Of a stretch of DNA of 64,000 nt, positions 25,035 through 59,367 are shown piece by piece. Within the stretch, counting starts at the first letter, position 1. Every line of letters begins with the position of its first letter. The notes beneath the pieces were generated by a model. The model saw only the letters and a list, made by a program, of their open reading frames with translations. It ran no database searches and was not told where the DNA came from. A program made the translations under genes and the position numbers. This DNA comes from a virus (lineage: Duplodnaviria > Caudoviricetes): IMG/VR virus record IMGVR_UViG_3300028048_000086, positions 53,974-117,973 of that record. One strand, 5' to 3'.

Positions 25035-28000
25035 TTACCACATCGTTCGACCGCCGCCAGAGTTTCGTCCTCCTGAACGACTTCCCCACGAAGAATGATA
25101 AGATCTTCCTCCGCCAGAAGTCAGAGGGACATGAACCCATTTCTGGTAGTCTCCGGGAAGCTCGCCAGGATCTTTCCCGATTTGTTTCACTCTAGTAGTA
25201 TTTTTCCATGGGTTGATAGAATTATCCAAGTCACGTAGCACGGCATTTGCCTGCCGATTCAATGGATCTACGTGAACCTGCTGGATCCTTGTCTCCGTTT
25301 TCATCGTCTTAATCGCACCCGTAAGATCGGGGAATTTCAAGACGAACGCCAAGTGGGCCAGTCCAAGAGCATCAACGAAGTGTTCGTTCTTGCTCGTATA
25401 AACCGGGACGCCCGCCTGCGAGATATGATCTACTTCATAATCAACTAATTGCTTATGAAGTACTTCATCGAATGGAGACAAGATAATTCTGCCGCGCTCG
25501 AAATTCAGCTTTAGCTGATTCACCATGAACTGCTTCATGGGCTCCTTTGTTTTTCTTCTCGTAATCGGATCTAGAATATCCAAGGTCTGTTTGAACTGAT
25601 ATCCGATAACTTTGGATTTCAAGCCTGATTCAGGATGTTGATCGCCATAGATATGCAGTCTCTCTAGCTGATAATCTCCGTATCCACGGTCACAAAAGAT
25701 CCATGATGGGCGATATATCTGATTCAGTTTTACCGTCATCTGGACGGCTTTATCTAAAGAATACTCGCTTCGCGGCACCTCTATCCTTTTCATTACCATG
25801 AACTTTTTTCTATGCACATCGAAGTCTAAGACGAGTAGAGAGCTACCGGCCTGGTAGGCATCCCAGTCAATGCCGATGCACCTAAATGGATTGTATGGTG
25901 CCAGATTTTCTTCGTCATACATGATTTCGATCGGCGGCTGCTGCCCGTTTAAGTTTCTTTTCTGAGTGTCTGTTAGAGGAGCGTACGTATAATACACCTG
26001 ATGCATTGCTTCATCGAGCTTATTCTTATCGAAGACGCCGGCTTCTTCGGTACCGAAAATCGCTAGAATTTCATGGTCATACTGAGAAGCCGTTAATTCA
26101 GCTCGATACTGATCTTCTAGCTGCTGGCTCCAATTCGGATTATCCATCGAAGGATGATAATGCTCCGAATACCCCATACCATTCGGCCTCTTATCCGTAC
26201 ACATCTGATAAAAAACGCCTCGTTTACCAGTAGGGGTAGAGGAACAAGTCATTCCGATATCTGGGCGCTCACCGGCGATCATGGCTACCGTGGAGTAATC
26301 GTTAGTTCCCATGTAGTCAATTTCATCAAGAAATAGCCAATCAGCCCTCTGTCCGCGCACAGACGCTGCGCCCTGGCCCGATGAAGCGCCGGTCGTAAAA
26401 CCGAGAATCGTCGAGCCGTTTTTGAACTCTACCGTATAAGGAGAACTCTTAATCCTCGTGATTTCATTCTTTAAGAGAGGAGACTCCGCGATCAACTCTC
26501 TCATACGCATAAATAAGAGATTTACCTGATTCTCGTACGGAGTAACGTAGAGGACACGATAATTTCGGCCTTTCGGAGCTGTCATCGCTCTCCATAAGCC
26601 TTCTATAATCATCGTCTCCGACTTCCCGCAATTATGCGTATAGATATCATTTACAACAAAATTATTGTTTTCAGGAACCATGACGCTATATGTCATAAAT
26701 TTTCCAAGATGCTCGATGCTCTTAACAGGATCCCATTCGATGTCTCCATCGCACAATTTCACGATTTCTCTCAAACCAAGATATTTTGATAATATTCGTG
26801 CTTTCCATTTTTGAAGTTTGTAGCTTTTCAAACGCAACCTTTCATTTAATGGATCGCTTGGCCATAACTTTACTAAATTTGTAAGTTTCAAGCCCTTACG
26901 TGAAATCTCCTCTTGAATTACCGGATTAATCTCTTTCGGCATAAAGAGGTCTTGCTCTTTTCCTTGCGTGATAATGTCAAAACACTTGCTTACAGCTTCT
27001 TCCTTGCCGTAAATTCCAATTTCTTCCTTGAAAATCATAAAAGAGATACGATCGCAGATGCAAAGAATCCACGCTTTTTTCTTTTTACGTATATGTGTTC
27101 TTATTCCAAAACGCAAGAGTAAATGAGCTAATTCTCTGATCAATCGCTCGGAATTCGAGCAATATCCTATCTCAGTTCTTGTTTTTTTGCCAGACGAACA
27201 TGCCCAGCCATCAGTAGAGAATAAACGAGAAATGAATAAAGCAATTTGTCTTCTTGAACTCTTAAATATTTCTTTCGGAATAAACTTGTCATCTGCTCCA
27301 TGCCCAAATACGCCATATTTTATCAAAAGCTCTTTTGCTTCATTCTTATATGTCTTGCTCAGCCGATGCTCTTTTTTTCTGATGCTGTAGTCGTAAGGAT
27401 TTCCAGAGCATTCATAATGATGAAGTTCGCATCCGTACTGGGAGACAATTTGCTTCATTTCTTCAAGTTGTTTTCCTGGCGCTTGAGTAAAGCGAATTGT
27501 CTTTCTCGTACAATTTCCATCGCCAATCATGTAAGCAAGAAATTTAGCATCATTGTCGTCAATTTCTTGATTTCCAAAAAAATTTAGCGCTAGAGGAGTA
27601 CCGACAGAATCTCCTACATTTAATTCTTCGATATTTTTCCATCCAAAGGCTGTTAACAGAGGATGATCTGCCGTAGCGTCGATAACTTTTCCGCTTTCAA
27701 GAGTTACTCTTAGAACTTCTCGCTCTCCATTTTCATTTATAATACTATTTTGCTTCGCGGTAGCTTGATATTCATCATTCAGAGAAACTACGCCAAAAGG
27801 TTTTTCTTTTTCGAATAATTCTTTTGCTGTAGAGAGCTCTCCAGTAATTGGATCAAAAATGTTTACCCATCCTGGGACACAGCGTCTTCCAAGGCGATAC
27901 ACTTTACGCAGACTAAAATCGCGAAGCATTTCTTCCTGATAGGAACGTGCCGTCCACGGGCCATGTTTCTTGGTCCCTGCGTCATACGTCCGTACGAAAG

Positions 28001-28073
28001 CTTTAGCCCATAGAACAGGGTCAGCGAAGATTTTCTTCAACTTCGCCTGCTCTACGGGCGACAATCTAGCCAT
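25035..28073 (-). CDS. terL: terminase large subunit containing an intein (595 aa after splicing)
   Basis: RSYQ, spliced Walker A GRRCGKSE, RGQRAD, Walker B LFLDE, SSTP, IGIDW, HFVDAL. Confidence 0.93.
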   Translation of the reverse strand: MARLSPVEQAKLKKIFADPVLWAKAFVRTYDAGTKKHGPWTARSYQEEMLRDFSLRKVYRLGRRCVPGWVNIFDPITGELSTAKELFEKEKPFGVVSLNDEYQATAKQNSIINENGEREVLRVTLESGKVIDATADHPLLTAFGWKNIEELNVGDSVGTPLALNFFGNQEIDDNDAKFLAYMIGDGNCTRKTIRFTQAPGKQLEEMKQIVSQYGCELHHYECSGNPYDYSIRKKEHRLSKTYKNEAKELLIKYGVFGHGADDKFIPKEIFKSSRRQIALFISRLFSTDGWACSSGKKTRTEIGYCSNSERLIRELAHLLLRFGIRTHIRKKKKAWILCICDRISFMIFKEEIGIYGKEEAVSKCFDIITQGKEQDLFMPKEINPVIQEEISRKGLKLTNLVKLWPSDPLNERLRLKSYKLQKWKARILSKYLGLREIVKLCDGDIEWDPVKSIEHLGKFMTYSVMVPENNNFVVNDIYTHNCGKSETMIIEGLWRAMTAPKGRNYRVLYVTPYENQVNLLFMRMRELIAESPLLKNEITRIKSSPYTVEFKNGSTILGFTTGASSGQGAASVRGQRADWLFLDEIDYMGTNDYSTVAMIAGERPDIGMTCSSTPTGKRGVFYQMCTDKRPNGMGYSEHYHPSMDNPNWSQQLEDQYRAELTASQYDHEILAIFGTEEAGVFDKNKLDEAMHQVYYTYAPLTDTQKRNLNGQQPPIEIMYDEENLAPYNPFRCIGIDWDAYQAGSSLLVLDFDVHRKKFMVMKRIEVPRSEYSLDKAVQMTVKLNQIYRPSWIFCDRGYGDYQLERLHIYGDQHPESGLKSKVIGYQFKQTLDILDPITRRKTKEPMKQFMVNQLKLNFERGRIILSPFDEVLHKQLVDYEVDHISQAGVPVYTSKNEHFVDALGLAHLAFVLKFPDLTGAIKTMKTETRIQQVHVDPLNRQANAVLRDLDNSINPWKNTTRVKQIGKDPGELPGDYQKWVHVPLTSGGGRSYHSSWGSRSGGRNSGGGRTMW
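26631..27881 (-). mobile_element. intein with LAGLIDADG endonuclease (417 aa)
   Basis: Begins CVPG, block B ATADHP, LAYMIGDG and LFSTDG motifs, ends THN before +1 Cys; AT-rich. Confidence 0.93.
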
Positions 28074-54799: not shown

Positions 54800-54893
54800 G
54801 GGCAGATACTCAAGTGGCTATAAGAGGACAGTCTTGAAAACTGTGAGCTCGTAGTGATACGAGGCGGGGGTTCGAATCCCTCTCTGCCCGCCA
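54800..54893 (+). tRNA. tRNA-Ser(UGA)
   Basis: Cloverleaf, long variable arm, GTTCGAATCC, CCA end. Confidence 0.9.
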
Positions 54894-54943
54894 TTATTTT
54901 TTTAGTTCTATTTCCTAGAGCTCTTCCATGGGAGCTCTTAAAA

Positions 54944-55020
<77 letters not shown>

Positions 55021-55022
55021 AC

Positions 55023-55096
55023 GCGGATATAGTGTAGTGGTAACACCTCAGCCCTCCAAGCTGATATCACGGGTTCAAATCCCGCTGTCCGCTCCA
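55023..55096 (+). tRNA. tRNA-Gly(UCC)
   Basis: TCAGC-CCTCCAA-GCTGA anticodon arm, CCA end. Confidence 0.88.
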
Positions 55097-55185
55097 AAGA
55101 ATATAAAAGCGTAAGCTTTTATATAAAGGTTTACCCCCTATATGAGGTTGATACGCGTCGCTTGCTAAGGCGTATCAACCGTCAA

Positions 55186-55261
55186 GGCTCCGTAGACAAG
55201 TCGGTTAAGTCAGCGGGTTTTCATCCCGCGATCGTCGGTTCAAGTCCGGCCGGAGTCACCA
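55186..55261 (+). tRNA. tRNA-Glu(UUC)
   Basis: GCGGG-TTTTCAT-CCCGC anticodon arm, CCA end. Confidence 0.9.
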
Positions 55262-55265
55262 TTAT

Positions 55266-55340
55266 GCCGGTATAGCACAACGGTAGTGCATCTGACTTGT
55301 AATCAGAAGGTTGTAGGTTCAAATCCTATTGCCGGCTCCA
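55266..55340 (+). tRNA. tRNA-Thr(UGU)
   Basis: TCTGA-CTTGTAA-TCAGA anticodon arm, CCA end. Confidence 0.92.
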
Positions 55341-55346
55341 TTTAAA

Positions 55347-55432
55347 GCCGAAGTGGTGGAATGGCAGACACGAAACGTTTAGGCCGTTTTGAGCGAGAGC
55401 TCGTGCAGGTTCAAGTCCTGTCTTCGGTACCA
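55347..55432 (+). tRNA. tRNA-Leu(UAG)
   Basis: AAACG-TTTAGGC-CGTTT anticodon arm, long variable arm, CCA end. Confidence 0.88.
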
Positions 55433-55437
55433 TTTAT

Positions 55438-55525
55438 GCCTGAGTGGTGGAATTGGCATACACATTGGACTTAAAATCCGACGCTCGCTAAGAGCATACG
55501 GGTTCAAATCCCGTCTCAGGCACCA
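55438..55525 (+). tRNA. tRNA-Leu(UAA)
   Basis: TTGGA-CTTAAAA-TCCGA anticodon arm, long variable arm, CCA end. Confidence 0.9.
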
Positions 55526-55534
55526 TGAAAATTT

Positions 55535-56135
55535 ATCGACGTATCAAACATGAAAGCGAGAGAACCTAGTGCATGAACGCGATGCCACGCGTCTAGGAGT
55601 ATCTGAAGAAACCATACGGATGAGGAGCCTCGGGTGATAGTCCGAGATACTCACGTCAGTTCCTGTTAGGCGAAAGTCGCAGGGCGGCATCTTGAAAGAT
55701 AGATGTTTCCGATAGGATACGTGCTTCTCGCGAAAGAGGATAATGCTCGTTTTGATCGTACGTCCCACAAGAGTTCTTATGAACCGCCAGATAAGGTCGC
55801 GCTTGCCGGCGCGGCATAACTCGCGGCAAAAGGCATCAAGGGATAGGCTATGATGCCGGAGAAATCCGGATATAAGTACGATAGCGGAACGATTAGCGCA
55901 TAGGCCGTTATAATGGTGCCTGAAAAAGGCGAAAAATATAACAATGCTGAATGGTGCGTGAAAGTTGGGAGTCCTAGTCTCCCTCGGATCACCGTGTTCT
56001 TTTAGAACGCGGGGTATAGGAAGCGCGGATTAGCTACCCGTTGCTCAGCCCTATATCGTCCGGTAGCATAATCATCCAGAGTCGTAAGAGGGGTATGGCG
56101 AAAGCTGCTCCCGCTTTCATGTTTGATGCGCCGAT
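55535..56135 (+). ncRNA. ROOL-like large structured RNA (about 600 nt)
   Basis: About 28 bp terminal helix between 55535-55562 and 56108-56135; many internal hairpins; size and tRNA-cluster context match ROOL. Confidence 0.65.
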
Positions 56136-56162
56136 GAGATTGAAAGAGGTATACAGAAACTC

Positions 56163-56348
56163 ATGCCTATTTACAATATGTTTTCTTTAGGAATTTCCTT
56201 CGTCGTATTCTTCTTCCTGGTCTTCGCTATTTCCGTAACGGGATTCATGGCGTATGATCTCGCCTCTTTCGTCGTAGATATTATCAAGGAAAAGAGGCGA
56301 GGAAAGAAAGATGAAGAATCGGACATTTATTTTTATGACAGAAGATGA
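56163..56348 (+). CDS. small membrane protein
   Basis: 61 aa with a hydrophobic stretch; GAGG RBS. Confidence 0.5.
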   Translation: MPIYNMFSLGISFVVFFFLVFAISVTGFMAYDLASFVVDIIKEKRRGKKDEESDIYFYDRR

Positions 56349-56415
56349 ATGGCTCCTGACCGCCTGCGTTATCGCGGCGGCCGCATTCACGTTCTTCTTC
56401 GGTGAATAAATATAT

Positions 56416-56490
56416 CGGGGTATCGTCAAGTGGTTAAGACACGGGACTTTGACTCCCGCATCACCGGTTCAAATCCGGTTACCCCCGCCA
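56416..56490 (+). tRNA. tRNA-Gln(UUG)
   Basis: CGGGA-CTTTGAC-TCCCG anticodon arm, CCA end. Confidence 0.88.
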
Positions 56491-56491
56491 T

Positions 56492-56569
56492 AGGGATATA
56501 GCTCAATTGGTAGAGCAGCGGTCTCCAAAACCGTCGGTTGAATAGGTTCGAATCCTTCTATCCCTGCCA
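56492..56569 (+). tRNA. tRNA-Trp(CCA)
   Basis: GCGGT-CTCCAAA-ACCGT anticodon arm, CCA end; irregular T stem. Confidence 0.85.
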
Positions 56570-56972
56570 TATGGTTCTCGATGGAGTAGTGGCCAGAGAG
56601 AACCCGACTTTGGTGTTCGTATCTCCTTGCGATCTCCTCTCTTCTAGGTGAACGGAAGAGAGGAGATATTACCGGTCAGAGAAGGCAATACCTTTGATAG
56701 ACCGATCACCTACTTTCACCTCTATCGCTTTCAAGGTGAATGAAAGCGCGGCCCGAAGAAGGCGACCTTTCCGGATAGCCTAGGAATAGAAGTCCCCGGA
56801 AAGGCTTTATGATTCGAACGAGGCAATACCTCGGAAGAATCTATTTTCAAGTTCATAGACCCAGACGGTCAGATGAACGACGGTTATCTCGATGATCGTA
56901 GTTTTTTAGGAGAAGATCCGTCTCCGATATCTGAAACTGATCGAGAGTCCTAGGCATGACATAACTGCCTAT
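56570..56972 (+). ncRNA. candidate structured RNA (about 400 nt) between tRNA-Trp and the CAU tRNA
   Basis: ORF-free run of hairpins; two AGGCAATACCT elements. Confidence 0.4.
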
Positions 56973-56979
56973 TTATCAT

Positions 56980-57056
56980 GCTCCTCTAGCTCAGTTGGTT
57001 AGAGCATCCGGCTCATAACCGGCTGGTCCTCAGTTCAAGTCTGAGGGGGAGCACCA
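56980..57056 (+). tRNA. tRNA with CAU anticodon (Ile2 or elongator Met)
   Basis: CCGG-CTCATAA-CCGG arm; paired G1-C72, so not an initiator; CCA end. Confidence 0.88.
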
Positions 57057-57227
57057 TTGAAAAATAAATCTGAAGAAGGTGATGCCATTATTTTCGTAGA
57101 AGGACTTATTCTAGGTTTATTCCTCGGATCTATCGGCTCAGCTTTGGTAGTATGCTTCTTTATCGGAGCCGGGGCATCACGTCGATAGATAAATTCATAT
57201 CCGCCGTAAGGCCGGCGGGATAATAAA

Positions 57228-58473
57228 TAGGCACGGGTTCAGAGATCGTCAGAGCCAGCCCCGCCTGGAGGGCCGTTACAAACGAATATCCAGGAGTACC
57301 AGCAAAGACGATCCGTCGTCACGGACTAAAGAGGACAACCCCATCCGTGACCTCATTCCTTCCGGTCCTGAGAAAGACTGGATGCTCGACTTACCGAGGA
57401 CCCACCTATCGCTCCGGCGGTATGGTCTGGTTGATCCTCGATAGAAGAGCTTTCCTTTTTGCGGATAGGAGAGGGTTAAAAATCCGCCGTCGAAGAAAAT
57501 AATGTCTTCGGGATGACATCCGAAAGACGCCCCGAAAGTCAAACGGGTACCGTCAGCGTAAATGACGGATCATGGAGAGTTCTCCAAGTTTCTTCGCTCC
57601 ATGATTAACTTTAATAGCTACGCCGCCTGAATAAGGCTCGCGGACGCGCGAAATAGACAGTACGATCCTCGAGGGAGAGATCGGGCGTGCTCGTCATGAT
57701 GGAAAATGCAGGTAGTGCAGTCGGTAACGATACTTCTTCGGAAGGGCCACGGAAACGCAAGTAGGATTATCGGAAGTGGATGCATGATGACGAGAAATAA
57801 TCATCCGGACGCCTGACCCGTCAAAGCCAGGAAAGAACCTTGCACTTCTCGAACAAGTAAAATAATCGAGGCAAGCCGTACCGCTACGGATGAAAAACAA
57901 GCGGCGCAGAAACTAGATAAGGCGGGTAGAATTTGCCCGCCAGCCTATAGTATAGGTACCTCCGACGCGAAAGATGCGAGGAAGACGCGGAGTTGCAGGT
58001 GTTCGCCGCGTCTATGCTCTGATATAGATGTCTATCCCCTGAAATATAAATGGGCATCCAAATGATCGTATCAAGAGCATTCCTTAAGCAGACGATTCTC
58101 TTCCGACGGTGACGTCGGATATATCGTACCGATATTCTATTGAGTCAGTGTAGGGGCAAGAGATAGGATATACGATACGTGATGGAGCATTTCTCTTATG
58201 TTTGGATACAAGAGGAATGGGTGGGTAAAATCGTCGCCGGGTGGCGAGAACGTAATATCTCGATATATCGTACGTGACTTTTATGCTTTTAAATCGTACG
58301 ATGAATTAAAAGAAGCATACGTCGAAGCATCTGCCGCCGGGAAAGGCGGGAAAGCGATTATGACGCAGGTCGGTAAACAATATACGACCACCCTTATACG
58401 TGAATAAGGGGAGCCACGGAGTTAGCCGTCGACGGCGATGAACGTCGATGGCGAGATGAGGTCGCCGTGCCTA
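57228..58473 (+). ncRNA. candidate very large structured RNA (GOLLD-like by context only)
   Basis: TAGGCACGG/CCGTGCCTA end pairing, dense hairpins, almost no plus-strand coding. Confidence 0.45.
58198..58407 (+). CDS. small hypothetical protein
   Basis: 69 aa, GGAG RBS; lies inside the candidate RNA. Confidence 0.4.
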   Translation: MFGYKRNGWVKSSPGGENVISRYIVRDFYAFKSYDELKEAYVEASAAGKGGKAIMTQVGKQYTTTLIRE

Positions 58474-58622
58474 ATAAAAAACGTATATAAAACGTTTTTT
58501 ATTCTGTTTCGGACTCTAGCCAATGAGTGGATTGAAGACATAACGCGGACGAAGAGTGAGACTCTCGGAGACCGCTCATTGATATGATAATTCGCTCAAT
58601 CGTGGAAGAAAGAGCGAGAAAA

Positions 58623-58657
58623 GATAGCGTTGATGATATTCAGTCAACGCTATTCTT
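58623..58657 (+). terminator. terminator-like hairpin
   Basis: ATAGCGTTGA/TCAACGCTAT stem followed by TCTT. Confidence 0.5.
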
Positions 58658-58770
58658 ATAAAGAGGGCAAGAGCCTTCTCTGTAGAGTAATATATAATCA
58701 GCAAAAGACTTCTAACGAGATATTCTCCGTGGAAGTTAATTCGTGAATATCAAAAGAGGAGGCTTTTTAT

Positions 58771-59367
58771 TTGGCTAGTAAGAATAAGCTCGTTAGCCTG
58801 TATAATTTAAAGCGTTTCCTGGATTACCTTCGCACGGGATTCACGGCCCCAAAGTCAAAATGCGATGCACTAGGAAATGTTATCGATACAACCTACCTTC
58901 AGAAGAAGGATGTCATGGGAGATGAATCTTCCGATTCTTCCTCCGGAGGAAAATTTCTTCGCGTCGGTGACGATGGTGTCCTGAATGTCGGTCAGGAGAT
59001 CGATCTTCATATTGACATCGAGGGCGTAGACAAGGCGACGACGAAGACGAAAACCATCAAGCTGAAATTTGATGGCGATTGTCTCGTCAGCGATGTTCCG
59101 ATTAAGGCCGAGATTTATAACACCGCTGAGCCTACGAGAAAAGATATTAGCGTCGCAGACGAAGCGAAGTCGGTTCACTGGAAAAATATCAAAGATAAGC
59201 CAGACGGTTATCCGCCACTGATGCATACTCATGATGACTACGTGAAGAAGTCTGAACTGAGCATGAAGGAAGGCGATGTTACCCTCGACGTTCTCGGTAT
59301 TCGAGTACAGAATACGATGATCGTGCCTACGACGGATAGTGGCGTAGGAAATTTCTGGATTTCGTAA
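58771..59367 (+). CDS. tail fiber-related protein
   Basis: GAGGAGG RBS; DALGNVIDTTY and WKNIKDKP..PP..HTHDDY fiber-type motifs. Confidence 0.6.
   Translation: MASKNKLVSLYNLKRFLDYLRTGFTAPKSKCDALGNVIDTTYLQKKDVMGDESSDSSSGGKFLRVGDDGVLNVGQEIDLHIDIEGVDKATTKTKTIKLKFDGDCLVSDVPIKAEIYNTAEPTRKDISVADEAKSVHWKNIKDKPDGYPPLMHTHDDYVKKSELSMKEGDVTLDVLGIRVQNTMIVPTTDSGVGNFWIS

What the first reader, a model, noticed from the sequence alone, without database searches (positions are those of the whole stretch)
57228..58473. Possible 1.25 kb structured RNA enclosing a small ORF
Seen: the region starts right after a hairpin. Its first 9 nt (TAGGCACGG) are perfectly complementary to 58465-58473, and an alternative pairing ACGGGTTCAG/CTGACCCGT near 57813 competes for the same 5' end. 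About 950 nt lack plus-strand ORFs yet are full of stems, several with GNRA/UUCG loops. Inference: a GOLLD-like or new giant ncRNA. Together with the ROOL-like RNA and the 400-nt element, one tRNA cluster would carry up to three large RNAs.
Basis: partly seen in the sequence, partly recalled or inferred. Interest (0 to 1): 0.7.

Follow-up and report, generated by a model that had tools for sequence, protein, structure and literature searches.

The report
Modular structured RNA in phage tRNA-island
The 1.2-1.4 kb after the last tRNA of a jumbo phage's tRNA/ROOL island is not protein-coding but a chain of conserved RNA folds matching no catalogued RNA family; its parts are gained and lost separately among related phages, so it is probably not one giant RNA clamped by the 9-base end pairing.

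Summary
The sequence features are real. The 9-nt end complementarity, the upstream hairpin, the GNRA/UUCG-capped stems and the 69-aa ORF are all present. Two parts of the reading fail.

1. The 9-bp "closing helix" is at chance level. Its 5' arm is missing in relatives that keep the rest. Its 3' arm has an invariant local partner.
2. The 69-aa ORF is broken, replaced or absent in most relatives.

What holds is that the stretch is a plus-strand, non-coding, strongly structure-conserved RNA region.
- Compensatory changes: 29 pairs against 9.7 expected, and 11 against 2.9.
- Alignment-shuffle z is -5 to -7, against about 0 for coding controls.
- No Rfam family matches at E<=10. GOLLD and ROOL models miss it, although a true ROOL lies 1.1 kb upstream.

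About ten relatives (public ENA/Logan assemblies) show a cassette-like build:
- a variable 5' hairpin module, replaced by a tRNA-Ile in some;
- a conserved module B;
- a 289-nt core K, with a near-invariant (1 change) 50-nt block, which two relatives lack;
- a linker M;
- a 458-nt 3' module T, which also occurs alone;
- a conserved terminator.

Best reading: a new family, or tandem set, of phage structured ncRNAs co-transcribed with the tRNAs. Transcription and function are untested, and only three deep lineages exist.

The parts
57057..57227 (+). Trailer after tRNA-Met. It holds a 43-aa ORF (57057-57188) that is not conserved, and a hairpin at 57201-57218.
   Evidence: ORF, with no Pfam or PHROG hit. 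A 1-nt deletion in L017 breaks the frame, and the whole stretch is absent in L012/L018. Hairpin coordinates.
57228..57375 (+). Module A, a variable 5' hairpin domain with three stems: 57244-57250/57307-57313, 57264-57269/57289-57294 and 57318-57324/57345-57351.
   Evidence: About 75% identical to L002, whereas the flanks are 98-100% identical. Stems are kept by compensatory change: GATCGTC/GACGATC becomes GATCATC/GATGATC, and GTCACGG/CCGTGAC becomes CGGGAGG/CCTCCCG. The window-L002 alignment 57195-57480 (A4) has 10 two-sided changes, nearly all within 57228-57375. The module is replaced by a 98-nt tRNA-Ile(UAU) in L012/L018, truncated in L017 and partly deleted in L016.
57376..57604 (+). Module B, present wherever a relative's sequence reaches this region and the upstream part has not been replaced (not L013/L014, where only module T remains; L005 does not reach it). 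It comprises a stem 57395-57400/57435-57440, three short hairpins, the stem 57571-57577/57597-57603, and a possible pairing of CGAAGAAA (57491-57498) with TTTCTTCG (57589-57596).
   Evidence: CGAGGA/TCCTCG becomes CGTGGA/TCCACG in L016. CCGTC/GACGG becomes CCATC/GGTGG and CATGGAG/CTCCATG becomes ACGGAG/CTCCGT in L004. Single-sequence fold z is -2.2. It starts directly after the CCA end of tRNA-Ile in L012.
57605..57893 (+). Module K, the core: two adjacent multi-helix junctions. The first is closed by 57619-57624/57684-57689. The second is closed by 57690-57701/57783-57794 and holds hairpins 57707-57719, 57720-57731 (GUAA loop) and 57733-57744 (UUCG loop). It also includes hairpins 57808-57822 and 57826-57843.
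   Evidence: 76% identical to L004 overall, which exceeds the 66% of the neighbouring gene, with a 50-nt block that has one change. With the window-only MFE as the structure, 11 compensatory pairs against 4.0+-1.5 in shuffles. All helices at A2 columns 91-232 (about 57552-57690, so the last two stems of module B plus the first junction of K) stay paired in L004. Indels of 1, 2, 5 and 7 nt exclude coding. The module is replaced by 54 unrelated nt in L016 and L019.
57894..58015 (+). Module M, linker hairpins, for example 57921-57941.
   Evidence: Present in the window-like relatives, including L016/L019. Changes are wobble-compatible, GC to GU. Much shorter and unalignable in L004.
58016..58473 (+). 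Module T, the 3' domain. Supported stems are 58103-58118, 58282-58290/58311-58319, 58334-58349, 58368-58389 and 58391-58410. The invariant terminal domain is CACGG 58415-58419 / CCGUG 58465-58469, enclosing hairpin 58425-58452.
   Evidence: For A7 (57889-58476, modules M and T together): 29 pairs with changes on both sides against 9.7+-2.4 in shuffles and 6-12 in slid controls. For the 3' 245 nt of T alone (A5): alignment-shuffle z -5.0 on plus against -3.5 on minus. Single-sequence z is -3.6. The module occurs without A, B, K or M in L013/L014, after MazE/PemK genes. Its middle (58257-58364) is swapped for 171 nt of other hairpins in L016.
58198..58407 (+). 69-aa ORF inside module T. It is not a conserved gene.
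   Evidence: The only homologues are at least 90% identical copies. Frameshift in L012/L013/L014, stop at codon 6 in L015, replaced in L016, absent in L004/L005. Window against L002: 3 of 4 changes are non-synonymous.
58473..58503 (+). Terminator-like A-tract / hairpin / T-tract, the likely 3' end of the transcript.
   Evidence: 12-bp perfect stem with a 7-nt loop followed by a T-run (I4). The equivalent hairpin plus T-run is kept in L004/L005 with a different stem sequence.
57228..57236 (+). Its partner is 58465-58473.
   Evidence: Perfect complement but chance-level. The arm is missing in L012, L018 and L017. C to T in L002/L016 gives G-U, which is compatible but not compensatory.

Best explanation
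The stretch from the tRNA-Met end (57057) to the terminator-like hairpin (58473-58503), which contains 57228-58473, is a plus-strand non-coding region of a jumbo myovirus.

Build. It consists of at least five independently folding RNA modules (A, B, K, M, T). They are kept in shape by selection on base pairing, and they are gained, lost or swapped as cassettes, much as the neighbouring tRNA genes and ROOL are.

Proposed working.
- The modules are transcribed rightward with the tRNA/ROOL island.
- The 5' end is freed by 3' processing of the flanking tRNA (tRNA-Met here; tRNA-Ile abuts module B directly in L012/L018).
- The 3' end is set by the invariant terminal stem and the terminator.
- The products, above all the 289-nt core K and the 458-nt module T, act in trans as stable structured phage RNAs during infection, like ROOL and GOLLD from the same kind of locus. 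They might act as an RNA-only scaffold or as a binder/decoy of a host factor.

Shown here: non-coding nature, conserved structure, strand, modularity, terminator, tRNA adjacency, and no match to any Rfam family.
Inferred only: transcription, processing, stability, trans action and function.
For: Structure conservation.
- Window-only MFE of the core tested on L004: 11 two-sided changes against 4.0+-1.5 in shuffles (0/500) and at most 3 in slid controls.
- A7, 9 sequences, M+T: 29 against 9.7+-2.4 (0/500), slid 6-12.
- A6, 7 sequences, B+K: 11 against 2.9+-1.5 (0/500), slid 0-3.
- Column-shuffle z of the RNAalifold energy: -5.3 (core), -5.0 (3' part), -7.2 (5' part), with SCI 0.53-0.85. Two coding controls from the same loci give z -0.3 to +0.8 and SCI 0.11-0.25.

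Strand.
- Plus beats minus in the core (-5.3 against -2.4) and in the 3' part (-5.0 against -3.5).
- Several stems vary only through G-U pairs, which would be A-C on the other strand.
- The tRNAs and the terminator have the same orientation.

Non-coding.
- Both small ORFs are broken in relatives.
- Core indels are not multiples of 3.
- Reading TGA as a residue opens a 281-codon frame, but its product looks non-protein-like, only by eye; it was not searched.

Modularity.
- Breakpoints at 57376, 57605/57893, 58016 and 58257/58364 among copies about 97% identical.

Context.
- A true ROOL lies 1.1 kb upstream.
- ROOL and GOLLD are described as phage/prophage RNAs near tRNA islands, possibly co-transcribed with them (PMC12286853; PMC5737381).
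Against: - No expression data.
- Phylogenetic depth is shallow. There are three deep lineages (window-like, L004, L005) plus near-identical mosaics, so compensatory counts rest on few independent events.
- Most consensus structures were derived from the same alignments. Only one search is independent.
- The 5' part does not discriminate the strands (z -7.2 against -8.9).
- The single-sequence fold of core K is unremarkable (z -1.0).
- The neighbouring intergenic stretch 58506-58770 also gives z about -5 on both strands, so conserved hairpins are not unique to the element.
- Core K and ROOL are each dispensable in some relatives.
- No homologue was found outside this phage group in any collection scanned, so generality is unproven.
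Confidence: 0.62

Rival explanations
1. One giant (about 1.25 kb) ornate RNA. All modules would fold together into a single functional particle closed by the 57228-57236/58465-58473 helix, or by another long-range helix.
For: - The 9-bp complement is perfect, and it sits just after a hairpin and just before the terminator.
- In the deepest comparison (L004), B, K and T-like parts occur in the same order in one gene-free stretch.
- GOLLD likewise has a conserved part joined to a variable part, and can embed tRNAs (PMC12286853).
Against: - The 5' arm is absent in L012/L018/L017, which keep B-K-M-T.
- The 3' arm has an invariant local partner.
- Matches of this length are expected by chance, and two others occur in the same 1.4 kb.
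- K is missing in L016/L019, and everything before 58016 is missing in L013/L014.
- No inter-module helix shows covariation.
Confidence: 0.15
2. A cis-acting leader or attenuator for the downstream virion (tail-fibre-like) operon. Module T plus the terminator would control read-through or stability of the late transcript.
For: - Module T, the terminator, the conserved GTAATATATAATCAGCAAAAGAC box (58687-58709) and the N-terminus of the downstream gene stay together in every relative.
- This includes L013/L014, where the upstream context is entirely different.
Against: - Physical adjacency alone explains the linkage.
- 265 nt, a terminator-like hairpin and a separately conserved promoter-like box separate T from the gene.
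- The downstream gene itself is swapped among lineages, at 198, 195, 340, 386 or 399 aa.
- Modules A, B and K are not explained.
Confidence: 0.08
3. Non-functional spacer: decaying remnants of tRNAs, mobile elements and terminators. Its hairpins would persist through recent common descent and recombination, not selection.
For: - Window-like copies are 97-99% identical.
- The locus is recombination-prone and invaded by IS605-family tnpB in L002, L019 and L013.
- Modules are dispensable in some relatives.
- The family is confined to one phage group.
Against: - In the diverged copies the stems are rebuilt with different sequences while pairing is kept.
- Core K is better conserved than the adjacent protein gene, 76% against 66%.
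- Coding controls show no such signal.
- No tRNA-like or IS-end model hits inside the element.
Confidence: 0.07
4. Protein-coding after all: the 69-aa ORF (and the 43-aa ORF) would be real small phage genes, with the rest being their untranslated regions.
For: - A GGAG lies 10 nt before the ATG at 58198.
- The ORF is intact in window, L002 and six further recorded variants.
Against: - Frameshift, premature stop, replacement or absence in L012/L013/L014, L015, L016, L004 and L005.
- 3 of 4 window-L002 changes are non-synonymous.
- No Pfam or PHROG family matches.
- No homologue below 90% identity among 5.8 billion clusters.
Confidence: 0.03

Closest known systems
GOLLD RNA (Rfam RF02032)
   Same: Large structured RNA of phages and prophages, next to tRNA islands. 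GOLLD was first seen downstream of a tRNA-Met. It has a conserved part joined to a variable part, tRNAs can sit inside it, and its function is unknown (PMC12286853). Here the element follows tRNA-Met, has a variable 5' module that a tRNA-Ile can replace, and has conserved inner and 3' parts.
   Different: No match to the GOLLD covariance model at E<=10 in the whole record. Here the conserved core can be deleted while the rest stays. Known only from one phage group. No evidence of multimer formation.
ROOL RNA (Rfam RF03087)
   Same: Same locus type and the same genome: a true ROOL lies at 55541-56126 (177.8 bits). Both are flanked by tRNAs and both are dispensable cassettes; ROOL is deleted in L019. 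ROOL was found in the rumen; my recollection (not checked here) is that one source project, PRJEB21624, is a cow-rumen study.
   Different: The ROOL model hits only 55541-56126 and nothing in 57057-58505. BLAST finds no similarity between the two within the record. ROOL is one closed fold of about 580 nt, whereas this element is a chain of separable modules.
Phage tRNA arrays (tRNA gene cassettes)
   Same: Same transcription unit and orientation. Members are swapped, lost and gained between close relatives, and tRNA processing would release the neighbouring RNAs. In L012 the element starts at the CCA end of a tRNA.
   Different: No module scores as a tRNA or tRNA-like RNA with ARAGORN or Rfam. 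The modules are 120-460 nt multi-helix folds.
OLE and raiA large bacterial ncRNAs
   Same: Large, ornate bacterial ncRNAs defined by covariation, with function partly or wholly unknown.
   Different: No Rfam match. Those are chromosomal RNAs of Bacillota/Actinomycetota, not phage tRNA-island RNAs.

Membership tests
GOLLD (RF02032) | Scores at or above the family gathering score (150 bits) with the Rfam covariance model | tested here: not met
   No hit at E<=10 in the 118-kb record, nor in permissive cmscan runs of 2.7-kb, 1.3-kb and 0.46-kb pieces.
GOLLD (RF02032) | Lies in a phage or prophage beside tRNA genes | tested here: met
   Follows tRNA-Met in a 10-tRNA array of a myovirus with sheath, portal and terminase genes.
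GOLLD (RF02032) | Assembles into a homo-oligomeric RNA cage | not testable with these tools
   Needs purified RNA and cryo-EM or native gels.
ROOL (RF03087) | Scores at or above the gathering score (99.1 bits) with the Rfam covariance model | tested here: not met
   The only ROOL hit in the window is 55541-56126. Nothing in 56100-58800 at E<=10.
Group I / group II introns | Match to the intron core models (Intron_gpI, Intron_gpII, group-II-D1D4). For group II, a domain V and usually a reverse transcriptase ORF | tested here: not met
   No Rfam hit at E<=10. RF01998 finds nothing in the record. No ORF of 60 aa or more apart from the broken 69-aa one.
Protein-coding gene | Open frame kept among relatives, with changes biased to synonymous sites | tested here: not met
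   The 69-aa and 43-aa ORFs are broken in several relatives. 3 of 4 changes are non-synonymous.
Structured non-coding RNA (generic) | Base pairs kept by compensatory change more often than controls allow | tested here: met
   (0/500 shuffles reach the observed counts; slid controls are 2-4 times lower). (z -5 to -7 against about 0 for coding controls).
Structured non-coding RNA (generic) | A discrete, stable transcript exists | not tested
   The 5' arm is absent in L012, L018 and L017. The 3' arm pairs locally in all 9 sequences.

The most novel reading that the evidence does not exclude
Modules B-K-M-T form one RNA of about 1.1 kb, larger than GOLLD. It would be a third class of ornate phage RNA, made from the same tRNA-island transcript as ROOL, which builds or joins an RNA-only higher-order assembly in infected cells. 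The K-less and T-only forms would be defective or specialised variants.
Probability: 0.15. Interest if true: 0.85.

Novelty: new variant of a known kind. Interest (0 to 1): 0.58.

Why it matters
Very few classes of large, intricately folded bacterial or phage RNAs are known. Two of them, ROOL and GOLLD, were recently shown to form RNA-only cages whose function is still unknown.

A further structure-conserved RNA region with no Rfam match, in the same tRNA island as a ROOL, offers three things:
- it adds a candidate class;
- it shows that such RNAs can co-occur and be exchanged as cassettes;
- it supplies natural deletion variants (K-less, ROOL-less, T-only phages) usable as ready-made genetic controls.

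It also corrects two gene calls, the 69-aa and 43-aa ORFs, which are likely spurious.

Tried and rejected
No result or rejected, by topic.

Known RNA families.
- Rfam at gathering score and at E<=10, on four nested pieces: only tRNAs and ROOL.
- GOLLD model on the whole record: nothing.
- RF01998 was queried by mistake. It is a group II piece, and it was also negative.

Alternative genetic codes.
- TAG=Q gives nothing.
- TGA=W opens a 281-codon frame with 6 TGA. Its translation looks arginine/serine-rich and non-protein-like outside the last 69 aa; this was judged by eye only, and no family search was run on it. No tRNA with a UCA anticodon was reported among the 10 tRNAs found in the window. 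Neighbouring long genes are open under code 11.

Homologue hunts.
- blastn against 50,697 phage records: none.
- Six exact or gapped core patterns in IMG/VR: 0.
- One pattern in JGI metagenomes: 0.
- A 19-mer in 185,579 genomes: 4 hits, about the number expected by chance, with only 21-23 nt of similarity.
- Protein-anchored locus searches with the primase, the 198-aa gene and its alignment: none.
- Searching a spurious minus-strand ORF of the core as a 'protein': none.
- Earlier notes of this scan, by sequence and by relatives: nothing.
- The HMM search with the downstream protein gave only the three known clusters, then tail-fibre repeats. L011 proved irrelevant.

Other.
- No paralogue in the own record.
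- No covariance model was built. A model of the 289-nt core would exceed the calibration limit, and no collection could be searched with it.

Full report
Setting. The window is the right-hand 64 kb of a 118-kb IMG/VR virus record, judged about 46% complete. It encodes a tail sheath, portal and large terminase. The terminase is 32% identical to those of Bacillus jumbo myoviruses, so a Bacillota host is likely; this is an inference. On the plus strand, 54800-57056 holds ten tRNA genes and a true ROOL RNA at 55541-56126 (177.8 bits, gathering score 99.1). The finding lies between the last tRNA (tRNA-Met, 56980-57056) and a tail-fibre-like gene (58771-59367).

The observation. The sequence facts are correct.
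- A hairpin lies at 57201-57218.
- TAGGCACGG at 57228-57236 is perfectly complementary to 58465-58473.
- A bulged alternative pairing to 57813-57821 exists.
- There is no plus-strand ORF of 60 aa or more before the 69-aa ORF at 58198-58407.
- Stems are capped by GUAA, UUCG and GUGA loops.

The 9-bp match, however, is not beyond chance. About 3.8 perfect inverted matches of 9 nt or more are expected in 1.4 kb. The same stretch holds a 12-nt (57150/58309) and another 9-nt (57485/58429) long-range match.

Known families. Rfam 15 gives nothing but tRNAs and ROOL, at gathering scores and at E<=10 on nested pieces down to 461 nt. The GOLLD model finds nothing at E<=10 in the whole record. Alternative genetic codes do not rescue a gene.

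Relatives. Collection scans were empty: IMG/VR, JGI metagenomes, 185,579 genomes and 50,697 phage records. Relatives came only from ENA/Logan assemblies, reached through the 69-aa ORF, the downstream protein and their cluster members. They fall into three groups:
- window-like copies 97-99% identical over the shared parts (L002/L003, L012, L015, L016, L017, L018, L019, L013/L014);
- a deep lineage, L004 (core 76% identical; neighbouring protein 59% aa, 66% nt);
- L005, which covers the 3' part only.

My recollection, unverified, is that one source project (PRJEB21624) is a cow-rumen study.

Not coding.
- The 69-aa ORF has a 1-nt deletion in L012/L013/L014 and a stop at codon 6 in L015. It is replaced in L016 and absent in L004 and L005.
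- Three of the four window-L002 changes in it are non-synonymous.
- The 43-aa ORF after tRNA-Met is frameshifted in L017.
- Core indels against L004 are 1, 2, 5 and 7 nt.

Conserved structure.
- An independent test used the window's own MFE fold of 57470-57870, scored on the alignment with L004. It gave 11 pairs changed on both sides against 4.0+-1.5 in shuffles (0/500) and at most 3 in slid controls. Every helix in alignment columns 91-232 (about 57552-57690) stayed paired in L004, with 7 two-sided and 5 wobble changes and none broken.
- With consensus folds on larger alignments, 57889-58476 (9 sequences) has 29 such pairs against 9.7+-2.4 (slid 6-12).
- 57376-57900 (7 sequences) has 11 against 2.9+-1.5 (slid 0-3).
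- In the variable 5' module, whole stems are rebuilt with new sequence. GTCACGG/CCGTGAC becomes CGGGAGG/CCTCCCG, and GATCGTC/GACGATC becomes GATCATC/GATGATC.
- Column-shuffling of the alignments gives RNAalifold z-scores of -5.3 (core), -5.0 (3' part) and -7.2 (5' part), with SCI 0.53-0.85.
- Two coding controls from the same loci give z -0.3 to +0.8 and SCI 0.11-0.25.
- The plus strand is favoured in the core and the 3' part, but not resolved in the 5' part.
- Single-sequence z-scores are -1.0 (K), -2.2 (B) and -3.6 (T).

Caveats. There are few independent lineages. The consensus folds were derived from the tested alignments. The adjacent intergenic stretch 58506-58770 also shows conserved hairpins (z about -5 on both strands).

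Architecture. Breakpoints among near-identical copies define the modules.
- A (57228-57375) is variable. A 98-nt tRNA-Ile(UAU), whose CCA end abuts module B, replaces it in L012/L018. It is truncated in L017 and partly deleted in L016.
- B (57376-57604) is found in every relative whose sequence covers this region with the upstream part intact (L013/L014 lack it; L005 does not reach it).
- K (57605-57893) is the best-conserved part. It has a 50-nt block with a single change between window and L004. It folds as two adjacent multi-helix junctions. In L016 and L019, 54 unrelated nucleotides replace it.
- M (57894-58015) is a linker.
- T (58016-58473) occurs on its own in L013/L014, behind MazE/PemK genes. 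In L016 its middle is swapped for 171 nt of different hairpins.
- All copies whose sequence reaches that far end with CACGG...CCGUG enclosing a hairpin, invariant in 9 sequences. A terminator-like A-tract/hairpin/T-tract follows (58473-58503).

The alternative pairing to 57813 is not compensated when the 5' arm changes.

Interpretation. The best-supported reading is a modular structured non-coding RNA region: either one modular RNA or, more likely, a tandem set of RNAs. It would be co-transcribed with the tRNAs and ROOL, released on the 5' side by tRNA processing and ended by the terminator. Transcription, processing and function are inferred from context. ROOL and GOLLD are described as phage RNAs near tRNA islands, possibly co-transcribed with them (PMC5737381; PMC12286853). 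It works like those RNAs in locus and style, but it is not a member of either family by their covariance models. I rate it a new variant of a known kind. It is interesting as a candidate further class of large phage RNA, with natural deletion variants. It is limited by shallow phylogeny, a narrow distribution and the lack of any expression data.

Noticed in passing
L019:560-680, compared with window 55541-56093: A close relative lacks ROOL. About 553 nt are deleted, leaving only the 3' stub of ROOL's closing helix. The same contig also lacks core K and carries an IS605-family tnpB (L019 1355-2587).
   Followed up: partly
L013:5420-5737: In L013/L014, module T is preceded by about 320 nt of GC-rich, hairpin-dense sequence with no Rfam hit at E<=0.1. 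This follows MazE/PemK genes and an HTH-like ORF. It may be another unassigned structured RNA or a mobile-element end.
   Followed up: no
L012:1646-1743 and L016:167-264: A tRNA-Ile(UAU) of 98 nt with an insertion of about 22 nt after the anticodon stem. In some relatives it sits where the window has tRNA-Met plus module A. L017 has a normal 76-nt tRNA-Ile(UAU) followed by a 3' fragment of tRNA-Met.
   Followed up: partly
window 58506-58770: The intergenic stretch after the terminator keeps hairpins across lineages (alignment-shuffle z about -5 on both strands). It also has an invariant box GTAATATATAATCAGCAAAAGAC (58687-58709), unique in the window, which is probably the promoter of the virion gene.
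   Followed up: partly
window 56570-56972 and 56127-56415: Two more gene-free stretches lie inside the tRNA array: between tRNA-Trp and tRNA-Met, and between ROOL and tRNA-Gln (the latter holds a 61-aa ORF). In L002 and L019 a tnpB element is inserted near 56330. Their structure was not analysed here.
   Followed up: no
window 25035-28073 (-): The large terminase ORF is 1012 aa. Its first 511 residues also hit 'intein-containing helicase' annotations in Bacillus phages, so it may carry an intein or an added domain.
   Followed up: no
window 57150-57161 and 58309-58320: A perfect 12-nt long-range complement (GTATGCTTCTTT / AAAGAAGCATAC), expected about 0.06 times by chance in this stretch. Its 3' arm overlaps the 3' strand (58311-58319) of a covarying local stem (58282-58290/58311-58319). 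The 5' arm is absent in L012/L018.
   Followed up: partly
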